Notes: generated by a model from the sequence alone, not told the origin. 64,000 bases of DNA from Octopus vulgaris (GCA_951406725.2 OX597818.1:142290001-142354000), one strand, 5' to 3'. Positions 7,117-30,336 are shown, counted from the stretch's first letter. A program made the numbers and translations.

Positions 7117-7302
7117 AAATATGCTCCAATCTCTGACCCACAGGAGTGTTGTCTCCTCATTCTCTTTTCTATCACTACTACAGTGGCCTTTATTCCTCGG
7201 AGCTGGTTGATCTTCACTTAAGCCCACCCAGACACCATTACTCCCACCTTCACTGCTATTTGTGTGTTCCTGACCTACTAGGCATTGCACTGCACTAATC
7301 AT
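7117..7302 (-). CDS. Candidate alternative first exon, 62 codons (MISAVQCLVG...WVRDWSIF)
   Basis: ataATG start with an upstream in-frame TGA, 186 nt of non-repetitive open frame, donor TTT|GTGAGT in phase 0. Confidence 0.4.
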
Positions 7303-8219
7303 TATCTTTTGTTTCAGTCCTTCTCTTCCAGAATATCAATGCCCTGGAATGCTTTCCTTATGCTCTCCTTACCAATTTTCTTTCCCCAATAGTTGTCAGC
7401 TATGAAGGCATACGCACAGTCCCTCCTCCCAGACAAAACTGCAATCAAACAGGAAGAAACAGAGACAATAAAATTCCCTTCAGTGAAACAACAGCATTAT
7501 TTGCCTCTCTTTGTGGAGCAGAATGGCTGGATGGTCCTAAATAAACTTCATAAGTTTTACTTTTTCACTAATTATCCCACTACACTATAGTAAGATTGCT
7601 AGTTTAATGGGTAATTACTTTGTCAACTCCACAAATTGATTGAAAGGTCAAGTCAACTTGGACAACATTTTTCAAGTTGGGTTTAAAGCTCGTCAATTAT
7701 CCAATCTAATCTGGCTGTGTACCAACAAAGCTATTGGCAAACTTTCTGAAATATGCGGACTACAGAGAACGTGATGTGTTGTTGTTTAACCCCAGGTCAG
7801 ACCTTAACAGAACTCAACAAAATCACAATCAAAGCCATTCAAGTGATGATCATTTTGACTTTTCAGATAGATTTATCTCAGACTATACTACCAACAAAAG
7901 CAGAAAGGATACATTGGACACAGGGAGATTTAGCTGTTATTTCTAAAGGGCTAAGTAATTGTGTTGAGGCACCATCATTGGTTTGTAAATAATCCTATCG
8001 TATTAGGTTGTTGAACATCATCATCATCATCATCATCATCGTTTAACGTCCGTTCTCCATGCTAGCATGGGTTGGACGGTTCGACTGGGGATCTGGGAAG
8101 CCAGACGGCTGCACCAGGCTCCAGTCTGATCTGGCAGTGTTTCTACAGCTGGATGCCCTTCCTAATGCCAACCACTCTGTGAGTGTAGTGGGTGCTACAT
8201 ATAAATATGTATATATATA

Positions 8220-8630
8220 TATCATCATATCTTCGTTTAACGTTCGTTTTCCATGCTAGCATGGGTTAGACAGTTCGACCGAGGATCTGGGAAGCCAGAA
8301 GGCTGCACCAGGCTCCAGTCTGATCTGGCAGTGTTTCTACAGCTGGATGCCCTTCCTAATGCCAACCACTCCGTGAGTGTAGTGGGTGCTTTTTACGTGC
8401 CACCTGCACAGGTGCCAGGCGAGGCTGGCAACGGCCACGGTCGGATTGGTGTATTTTACGTGCCACCGGCACGGAAGGCAGTCGAGGTAGCGCTGGCAAC
8501 GGCCACGGTCGGATTGGTGTATTTTACGTGCCACCGGCACGGAAGCCAGTCGAGGCAGCGCTGGCATCGGCCACGAGTGGGATAGTGCTTTTTACGTACC
8601 ACCAGACCAGGGATCCTGGCTGGTTCAATT
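8220..8630 (-). mobile_element. RTE-related short retroposon (family B) with internal ~65-bp tandem units and (GAT)n tail
   Basis: Minus strand: GGTTGGCATTAGGAAGGGCATCCAGCTGTAGAAAC...CCCATGCTAGCATGGAAAACGAACGTTAAAC. Other copies near 8017, 8955, 9968, 27645, 30955, 39325 and 43445. Confidence 0.75.
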
Positions 8631-27922: not shown

Positions 27923-28273
27923 CTTTTTTTTTCTTTTTTTTTTTTTTTTTAGACTCCGCCGGTTACGACGACGAGGGTCCCAGCTGATACGATCAATGGA
28001 ACAGCTTGCTCGTAAAATTAACGTGCAAATGGCTGAGCATTCCACAGACATGTGTACCCTTAACGCAGTTCTCGGGGATAATCAGCGTGACACAGAGAGT
28101 GACAAGGCTGACCCTTTGAAATACAAGTACAACTCATTTTTGCCAGCTGAGTGGACTGGAGCAACGTGAAATAAAGTGTCTTGCTCAAGGACACAACGCG
28201 TCGCCGGGAATCGAACTCACAACCTTACGATCATGAGCCGAATGCCCTAACCACTAAGCCACGCGCCCTCACT
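27923..28273 (-). mobile_element. SINE: head H3 + central GTGTCCTTGAGCAAGACAC...CCACTCAGCTG domain + tail T3 + poly(A)
   Basis: TSD ttacgt(a/c)ctttt at 27911-27922 and 28274-28285. The central domain resembles CORE/Meta-type SINE domains. A diverged copy lies at ~4590-4895. Confidence 0.85.
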
Positions 28274-29380
28274 TTACGTCCTTTTACAGTCTACTTCAAT
28301 CTCACACTGCTTAATTGATAAAATGCCTCAATAATACATTCATCTAACCCATGCTAACAAAGAAAAATGTACATGAAACAAATGAGTGAATGAACCAACA
28401 AATGGCTTGTATAACCAACAGGTCATTATTCAACCTGTTAGAAATAGCAGCTAAATGTTCCTTGTATCACACATTACCATTTTAAATAAACAAGTAGATA
28501 TAGTCCCTGATATACATATGTCTGTTTCTTCATGCTAGCATGGGTTGGATGAATATTTATTGTTGAGGCATTATTTAATAGGCAGATATCCTTCTTGTTG
28601 CTAACTCTCTGCATAAGGGATTTTTTTTTTATTCCAGTTGTCTTTGAAAGTTCAGAACTACAGGGTAATTTGTTGATCAAGAATTATCTAACGTAGATGT
28701 GAGATCTGAAATTTCATGTGAGAGATTAATAAGTTAAGCTGAACCCAGTCCACGACTAGTACTTTATTTTACTGACCCTGAAAGGATTAAAGGCAAAGTT
28801 TATCTTGGTAAAATTTGGACTCAGGATGTAAAGGGCTGACCTAAGTGGTCAGCTTTTGCAAAGTATTTTGCCCAAAACTAATAATAACAGTTTCTGATTG
28901 AGGGACAAGACCAACAATATTGAGGGGAGAGGGGCCAAACAACACCATCCATCCCTGTACTTGACTACTACTTTATTGTACTGACTTCAAAAAAATGAAA
29001 AGTAAAGTTGACCCTAGCAAGATCTGAACTTGGAACACAATGCATTTTGCTTAACACTGTAACAATTATGCAAAATCTTACTGCACTGATAATTCTAATA
29101 CAGGCACAAGGCCTGAAATTTGGGGAAGAGGTTAGTTGATTACATTGAACCTAGTTTTCAACTGATACTTATTTTATCAACTTCAGCAGGATTTGAACTC
29201 AGAACATACAGATGGATGAAATGCTGCTGAGCATTTTGTCCAGCATGCAAACAAATCTACCAGTTTGCTGCCTTCTTAATAACGATGATGATGATGATGA
29301 TGACAAGGAGGAGAAGATGTACAAGTAGTAGTAGTAGTAGTAGTAGTAGTAGTAGTAGGAAATGTAATAAAAAAACTCAC

Positions 29381-30336
29381 CTCGTCCTCCTGTGGAACTA
29401 TTGTGTCTTCCAAACGTTGGTCATATTTAGTGTCATAGTCATCCTCCGAAGATTCTGAATCCGACCAACTTCGGTCAAATAGTTCTTCAGGAGACAAAGA
29501 AATAATTTCTTGGTCATTAATACTAGAATCTTTGTTAAATAAATCAGATTTGGTATCCAAAAGACTAACAATACCATTGCGCTGTGTATATCGCTTTGGT
29601 AATGAATTTGTGTTTTTATGATTTTTGTTAATGACTATTTCATCATTTGCTAAAACTTTTTGCAAACTTGGAGAACAGGATTGTGACTGCGGCAGTGGAT
29701 GGGAACCGGATTCTCCCTCAGCACTCCACTTATTTTTATTAATTTTTTCCACAAAGGCACGTACATATCCAGCTGCCATTGTAGGGTTTGCCAGATACTC
29801 ATCTTTGACTGGTGGTGGCTTTTTGACATTTTCTACTGGAGTGAAGGAGTTTGTTAATTTCTCAATGGTTTGAGAAATGTGTTTTGTACGATTTTGTGGT
29901 GAGGAAGGCATGGATTTGGACATTTGGCTTTCAGCAATGGTTTTATCTTTCAGTGTTTTCACTGGTGATGTCGATTCTTTGTTCAGTTTCTGAAATTCAC
30001 TGCATCTCTGCCGCACAATGCCAGAGAGCTTTGGAGACGTTGGTGTGGAAAGCGAAGAATTCCATCCAGAGAGTGGAGGAGAATTATTTGATTGTGGAGC
30101 TTCATAAAAAGGAATTTCTTCGTAGATTGGTGAATCAGGACAACTTTCTGTAGTGTTGTCTAAAAGACACAGACAGTTTGAAGAACTTTCTGCTTGCTCA
30201 TGCTTTATTGCTTCTGTTGAGGTGTCCTCTGCAGTGTTTCCAGAAATCACAACACCATTGAGTTTGTTGTGAGACTTTGTAAGTTTTGAGCCAACCCCTG
30301 TAATGAGGCGCTCCAAGAACTTCGGCTTGGCTGGTG
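29381..30336 (-). CDS. Large internal coding exon (956 nt) of a minus-strand multi-exon gene; disordered Ser/Pro-rich region of a probable signalling/cytoskeletal protein
   Basis: Only long, non-repetitive ORF in the window (track 29276..30316). Acceptor ttttatattttcAG|CACCAGCC at 30338-30337; donor GAGGACGAG|GTGAGT at 29380. Reads (x)CA-PAKPKFLERL...TIVPQEDE, entering in phase 1 and exiting in phase 0. Beyond the donor the ORF runs into (ACT)n/(CAT)n microsatellite. No folded domain recognised. Confidence 0.9.

What the first reader, a model, noticed from the sequence alone, without database searches (positions are those of the whole stretch)
7117..30336. Hidden array of alternative N-terminal exons, all ending in phase-0 donors
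Seen: the big exon ends EDE|GTGAGT in phase 0. Three islands of unique sequence downstream, spaced ~7-7.5 kb apart, each give an ATG-initiated frame that meets a perfect donor on a codon boundary: 21962-21885 (|GTAAGT), 14695-14693 (|GTAAGT) and 7302-7117 (|GTGAGT). Inference: these are alternative promoters/first exons splicing to one shared exon left of the window. That would give four N-termini: long disordered, membrane-anchor-like, Met-only and 62-aa. This variable-first-exon design is known from plectin, dystonin and PDE4, but the gene here is unidentified. Four same-phase donors are suggestive, but donor hexamers also occur by chance.
Basis: partly seen in the sequence, partly recalled or inferred. 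Interest (0 to 1): 0.72.

Follow-up and report, generated by a model that had tools for sequence, protein, structure and literature searches.

The report
Octopus FGD gene, real short isoform
This stretch is one large intron of an octopus FGD-family cell-shape signalling gene: the three proposed extra first exons are likely chance matches, while a different, unannotated methionine-only exon is spliced in one RNA sample and would give a short protein like those annotated in other molluscs, which is ordinary gene regulation.

Summary
The coordinates, frames and donors are as described, but the pattern is at chance level: 13 of 29 GTRAGT donors on the sense strand of this 43.9 kb intron have a phase-0 ATG, against 13 of 35 on the antisense strand. 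The gene is the octopus FGD/frabin-family RhoGEF (DH-PH-FYVE-PH). The 'big exon' is internal. Annotated alternative N-termini join it from upstream, in phase 1. The next exon does start in phase 0. No RNA contig showed use of the three candidates. The 62-aa one is half dispersed repeat, donor included. In 7 of 8 runs only the big exon enters the DH exon. It would give a 578-aa Met+core isoform. Met-only isoforms at this junction also occur in abalone, a freshwater mussel and an unnamed squid- or cuttlefish-like protein. The idea is right, the exons are wrong, and the biology is ordinary.

The parts
29381..30336 (-). Large internal coding exon (956 nt, phase 1 in, phase 0 out) of the FGD gene; about 319 aa, polar, no Pfam family, predicted disordered
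   Evidence: Spliced alignment of P0005; contigs of 4 of 4 runs cover it end to end and run on at both sides; no Pfam hit; 69% polar/charged/Pro/Gly against 57% in the core
52538..52562 (-). Coding part of an annotated alternative first exon (METQIHIF, phase-1 donor GTGAGT) spliced to the big exon
   Evidence: Exact match to P0005, P0010 and P0012 of three Octopus species
2448..2532 (-). Unannotated alternative first coding exon ending in ATG (2450-2448), donor GTATGT, spliced over 16,954 nt to the DH exon. Verified for 2478-2448; the 5' extent to about 2532 is extrapolated from the length of the loose end
   Evidence: Run X13: 114-nt contig with an 84-nt loose end at the DH acceptor; its 30 printed letters match only here in 464 kb, 1 mismatch, no other site within 8 mismatches; no other genome match over the exon; intron length
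21885..21962 (-).
   Evidence: no similar peptide at E<=1 among 230 fetched proteins; not among the partners at the DH acceptor
14693..14695 (-).
   Evidence: direct big-exon-to-DH join in 8 of 8 runs
7117..7302 (-).

Best explanation
How it works: the gene has two tiers of alternative 5' ends. Tier 1 (shown by annotated proteins and genome mapping): three phase-1 partners join the big exon, namely METQIHIF at 52.5 kb, MCMW at 118 kb and a multi-exon N-terminus whose last exon is at 145 kb. These give 900-1032 aa isoforms. Tier 2 (joint shown in one run): a Met-only exon skips the big exon and joins the DH exon 12 residues before the RhoGEF domain, predicting 578 aa. Inferred: the promoters are tissue-specific; the short form keeps the Cdc42 exchange and lipid-binding core and loses about 320 aa of predicted disordered targeting or regulatory sequence, which would change where and how constitutively it activates Cdc42.
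For: Identity. Exon map with GT-AG at 17 of 17 introns of P0005. Tier-1 exons. In one search two big-exon contigs extend to 30337 and two stop at 30336, consistent with at least two different 5' partners. New exon: in X13 the assembly breaks at the DH acceptor into one shared contig and two entering contigs, the big exon (1283 nt) and a 114-nt contig that maps to 2478-2449. The big-exon contig is unbroken at its 3' end, so the new exon is not a cassette downstream of it (inference from graph geometry). The shared contig begins at the G common to both partners and the 114-nt contig is unbroken, which leaves no room in that graph for partners ending in C (21885), T (7117) or another ATG (14693) (inference). 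Homologues: of 213 fetched proteins aligned at this junction, 4 have Met alone before the inferred exon boundary (P0020 unnamed, in one cluster with a Sepia protein; P0152 and P0155 Haliotis; P0161 Sinanodonta) and 2 have a 6-residue start (P0148, P0157 Haliotis). Chance controls. Precedent: human FGD4 has a downstream TSS used in immune tissues (PMC2780955, passages).
Against: The new exon rests on 1 contig in 1 of 8 runs, with only 30 of its 84 loose letters visible and 1 mismatch to the genome. None of the 10 members of the octopus protein cluster has this N-terminus. If the contig is colinear with the genome, an out-of-frame ATG in strong context at 2509 opens a 19-codon uORF whose stop overlaps the main ATG, with a 4-codon uORF at 2487; these could suppress translation. 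In X13 the shared contig's depth (376) far exceeds the two entering contigs (45 + 59), so clipped further partners cannot be excluded. The 7117 candidate itself was never laid with reads. Runs were chosen for holding the big exon and their tissues are unknown. Orthology of the Met-only exons across molluscs is inferred from proteins only, and P0020 could start at an internal Met.
Confidence: 0.8

Rival explanations
1. One reading: 21962-21885, 14695-14693 and 7302-7117 are all tissue-restricted first exons joined to the DH exon.
For: Frames and phase-0 donors exist and the acceptor is phase 0. Candidates 2 and 3 are single-copy. Abalone has two short first coding exons at this junction. Contigs drop rare variants and only 8 runs were laid.
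Against: 13 sense against 13 antisense such sites. Candidate 4 is repeat-derived. No similar peptide among 230 proteins. The one run that branches shows a different exon.
Confidence: 0.03
2. 14695-14693 is a 3-nt exon: either a micro-exon inserting one Met between the big exon and the DH exon, or a start-codon-only exon reached from an upstream non-coding exon.
For: It has a pyrimidine tract, CAG, ATG and GTAAGT (8 of 9 U1 match) and keeps the frame. It is the only such site of 5 in this intron that is not a repeat copy, and the only one under 15 nt among 15 sites in 2 x 422 kb.
Against: My filter left 2 sense and 2 antisense non-repeat sites, so there is no strand bias. The AG-free zone is 26 nt, shorter than 16 of the gene's 17 acceptors. 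8 of 8 runs show the direct join. 0 of 16 long cephalopod proteins with the junction carry the extra Met.
Confidence: 0.08
3. The 2450 exon is a cryptic or non-coding transcript start in one sample and yields no protein.
For: One run of 8; not annotated; uORFs in the leader; repeats lie just upstream.
Against: Canonical GT-AG joint in frame; the ATG has A at -3 and G at +4 after splicing; contig depth (59) is similar to the big-exon contig (45); the same Met-only architecture occurs in other molluscs.
Confidence: 0.1

Closest known systems
FGD family Cdc42 GEFs (human FGD1-4/frabin, C. elegans EXC-5)
   Same: DH-PH-FYVE-PH core after a long variable N-terminus (frabin domain order in PMC7642674, passages; family described in PMC8021397, passages). 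Human FGD4 also uses a downstream, tissue-specific TSS (PMC2780955, passages).
   Different: No Pfam family in the octopus N-terminal region, and an actin-binding domain like frabin's was not shown. Orthology to a single vertebrate paralogue was not tested. Whether the human downstream TSS enters at the equivalent exon was not checked.
Short FGD isoforms annotated in other molluscs (Haliotis XP_071081893.1, XP_067684493.1; Sinanodonta KAL3851930.1)
   Same: Met alone placed directly before the DH-start segment, with long isoforms sharing that segment.
   Different: Not among the 10 Octopus cluster members. DNA-level orthology of the exons could not be tested.
Multiple variable first exon genes (plectin, dystonin, PDE4, protocadherin, UGT1; recalled, with the Zhang, Haws and Wu 2004 title seen only in a reference list)
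   Same: Several 5' exons spliced to common constant exons.
   Different: Here the alternatives are few, unrelated in sequence, very short (1, 4 and 8 codons) and enter at two acceptors.

Membership tests
FGD family RhoGEF | DH (RhoGEF) domain | tested here: met
   PF00621, E 2.6e-51, residues 339-521 of P0005
FGD family RhoGEF | PH, FYVE and second PH domain in that order after DH | tested here: met
   PF22697 550-620, PF01363 678-740, PF00169 768-864
FGD family RhoGEF | Cdc42-specific exchange activity | not testable with these tools
   Inferred from the family (PMC8021397 passages)
Frabin/FGD4 subtype | N-terminal actin-binding domain | tested here: inconclusive
   No Pfam hit in the N-terminal region; whether Pfam models this domain was not checked; no tree built
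Alternative first exon gene | Two or more 5' exons spliced to one common acceptor | tested here: met
   DH acceptor: big exon and 2450 exon in X13. Big-exon acceptor: three annotated partners
Alternative first exon gene | Each exon has its own promoter/TSS | not testable with these tools
   Contigs cannot show starts; no CAGE or ATAC data. No clear TATA or Inr match near 2532
   13 of 29 sense against 13 of 35 antisense
   Not seen in 8 runs; contigs show presence, not absence
Protocadherin/UGT1-type variable exon cluster | Tandem duplicated, mutually similar variable exons (definition recalled) | tested here: not met
   The exons encode 1, 4 and 8 unrelated codons and one multi-exon N-terminus
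Micro-exon (14695-14693) | 3-27 nt flanked by acceptor and donor, frame-preserving | tested here: met
Micro-exon (14695-14693) | Inclusion in transcripts, typically neural | tested here: inconclusive
   Direct join in 8 of 8 runs of unknown tissue; contigs drop minor 3-nt variants

The most novel reading that the evidence does not exclude
14695-14693 is a genuine 3-nucleotide exon made only of ATG. It would either insert one Met just before the DH domain in neurons or supply the start codon of a second route to the short isoform, so the gene would reach the same Met+core protein from two separate ATG exons as well as carrying a mollusc-wide set of switchable N-termini.
Probability: 0.08. Interest if true: 0.5.

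Novelty: new member of a known kind. Interest (0 to 1): 0.2.

Why it matters
Modestly. It adds an isoform missing from the 10 octopus proteins of this cluster and suggests that a long/short switch of an FGD Cdc42 GEF is shared by cephalopods, gastropods and bivalves. It also shows that 'ATG plus in-phase perfect donor' has no predictive power in large octopus introns: the true exon had a non-perfect donor and was missed. Alternative promoters in FGD genes are already described (human FGD4, PMC2780955).

Tried and rejected
No RNA holder is on record as RNA; the laid runs are RNA by guess, though their spliced joints show they contain RNA. Bin 21610-22203 had depth 0, 0.17, 0 and 0 in four runs: a part without cover, not counted as evidence. 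Bin 14482-15075 had some depth (29.5, 0, 5.8, 1.2), unresolved and likely from repeats; only 24 of 1565 loose ends were shown. Window 5000-12700, with candidate 4, was never laid with reads. A search for short cephalopod fragments with other N-termini found 2 non-informative proteins among 88 candidates. P0077, P0200 and P0201 were dropped from the short-isoform count: P0077's Met is internal in its cluster mate P0202, and the other two start inside the exon. P0137 (Sepia) has a mis-predicted N-terminus and could not check P0020. A-to-I editing was rejected for the single mismatch in the X13 loose end (A read as C on the sense strand); an allele is more likely. Paper searches: no paper held with 3 of the 4 terms octopus/FGD/RhoGEF/alternative first exon. 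Microexon + octopus listed 3 papers; the one searched (10.64898/2026.09.05.749416, passages) has no FGD in its main text and its supplements could not be seen, which may bear on the micro-exon reading. Searches on FGD N-terminal autoinhibition gave nothing usable at listing level. Two papers were not held. No earlier scan findings.

Full report
1. Observation. The three ATG-to-donor frames and the big exon's phase-0 donor are in the sequence as stated, with spacings 7496, 7192 and 7576. They are not more than chance. The intron runs from 29380 to window coordinate -14506 (43,887 nt). On its sense strand 13 of 29 GTAAGT/GTGAGT sites have an open phase-0 ATG; on the antisense strand 13 of 35 do. 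Phases 1 and 2 give 7 and 14 sense, 11 and 10 antisense. With a wider donor set it is 37 of 94 against 34 of 89.

2. The gene. [quoted passage not shown] P0005 maps letter for letter to 18 exons with GT-AG introns, from 52562 to -144196. Pfam gives DH, PH, FYVE, PH in FGD order and nothing for the big exon or the two candidate peptides scanned. The big exon (30336-29381) is internal, with a phase-1 acceptor.

3. Alternative N-termini upstream of the big exon. The 10 members of the octopus cluster show three partners for the big exon: METQIHIF (52562-52538, in the window), MCMW (118021-118009) and a multi-exon N-terminus whose last exon is at 145370-145220, with a further exon near 293,900. All three donors are phase 1. 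In four runs the big-exon contigs continue 81-409 nt upstream; two match to 30337 and two to 30336, which fits at least two different partners (inference). Other molluscs show the same design.

4. The three candidates. 7302-7117: positions 7214-7092, including the donor, match 39 other places among 40 candidates scored; 1 of 2 copies aligned has the same GTGAGT. It is a repeat remnant, not unique sequence. 21962-21885: single-copy, but 13 of 265 sense ATG frames in this intron are as hydrophobic, and no fetched protein resembles it (0 of 230 at E<=1). 14695-14693: single-copy, donor 8 of 9 U1 matches, frame open back to 15085, and preceded by a pyrimidine tract and CAG. It is the only site under 15 nt among 15 acceptor-short exon-donor sites in 2 x 422 kb, but non-repeat sites show no strand bias (2 against 2) and its AG-free zone is shorter than 16 of 17 real acceptors.

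5. RNA. Eight runs were laid, all as assembled contigs of unknown tissue, chosen for holding the big exon. On 12700-30500, 4 of 4 runs have one contig spanning the big exon and continuing 1183-1770 nt downstream without a break. On the DH exon, 3 of 4 runs have one contig joining it directly to the big exon. The fourth, X13, breaks at the acceptor into a shared contig and two entering contigs: the big exon (1283 nt, depth 45) and a 114-nt contig (depth 59) with an 84-nt loose end. The 30 printed letters match one place in 464 kb, window 2449-2478, with 1 mismatch. The exon ends ATG at 2450-2448, followed by GTATGT, giving a 16,954-nt GT-AG intron; it has no other genome match over the exon. 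From graph geometry I infer that it is an independent 5' end, not a cassette after the big exon, and that X13 has no retained partner ending in C, T or another ATG.

6. Conservation of the short form. Of 213 fetched proteins aligned at this junction, 9 have 30 or fewer residues before it. Three were dropped (an internal Met, two starts inside the exon). Four have Met alone before the inferred boundary: P0020 (unnamed, clustered with a Sepia protein), P0152 and P0155 (Haliotis) and P0161 (Sinanodonta). Two have six residues (P0148, P0157, Haliotis). In Haliotis and Sinanodonta long isoforms share the downstream residues exactly, which marks the boundary. None of 16 long cephalopod proteins has an extra Met there.

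7. Mechanism. Shown: exon structure, domain content, three annotated upstream partners, and one spliced joint from 2448. Inferred: that 2450 lies near an internal promoter, that it is tissue-specific, and that it is translated into a 578-aa protein. Two uORFs (ATG 2509, 19 codons, stop overlapping the main ATG; ATG 2487, 4 codons) would be in the leader if the contig is colinear and could damp translation. From family knowledge, the short form keeps the exchange activity and lipid-binding domains. In frabin the N-terminal domain could be deleted without losing Cdc42 activation in one infection assay (PMC7642674, passages), so the likely effect is on targeting and regulation. Confidence 0.8.

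8. Comparison with what is known. It is a member of the FGD family by domain architecture; Cdc42 specificity and paralogue-level orthology were not tested. It works like other alternative-promoter genes. Human FGD4 has a downstream TSS expressed in bone marrow and spleen, while the known TSS is used in nervous tissue and testis (PMC2780955, passages). It is not a protocadherin/UGT1-type duplicated array (definition recalled). One search for octopus/FGD/RhoGEF/alternative first exon found no paper with 3 of the 4 terms; the library lacks most subscription journals.

9. Verdict. Observation partly confirmed, interpretation partly supported. The real addition is one unannotated Met-only first coding exon at 2450-2448. 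New member of a known kind; interest 0.2.

Noticed in passing
G000:C5, window coordinate 118021-118009 (outside the window, minus strand): The 4-codon start MCMW before the PAKPKF/PSKPKF motif recurs in octopus, Argonauta, chiton, scallop, oyster and mussel (MCLW in abalone). A conserved Met-Cys start suggests S-acylation or the Cys/Arg N-degron route. Human ADO prefers a basic or aromatic residue after Cys (PMC11199558, passages), and here it is Met, so this is only a lead.
   Followed up: partly
P0142, P0145, P0147, P0168, P0180: The longest bivalve and abalone isoforms start MGQxxS, which from recall fits N-myristoylation; the octopus long isoform does not.
   Followed up: no
window 2509-2450, minus: A 19-codon uORF in strong context whose stop codon overlaps the start ATG of the short isoform.
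   Followed up: partly
window 19296, 4443, 3104 and coordinate -11944, minus: Copies of a very common SINE-like repeat carry acceptor-like AG, 15 nt and GTGAGT, and supply many of the 'perfect donors' in this intron.
   Followed up: partly
window 7214-7092: The repeat read on the plus strand resembles, from recall, the C-terminal end of a LINE ORF2 in broken frames; family not tested.
   Followed up: no
L003:5396-5494: In run X13 the shared downstream contig has depth 376 against 45 and 59 for the two entering contigs. This may be 3' bias, a dominant short isoform or clipped partners; unexplained.
   Followed up: no
G000:C5:142583772-142583966: A far upstream exon of the long isoform is annotated as a separate 85-aa gene (P0007) in one annotation; the gene spans at least 438 kb.
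   Followed up: partly
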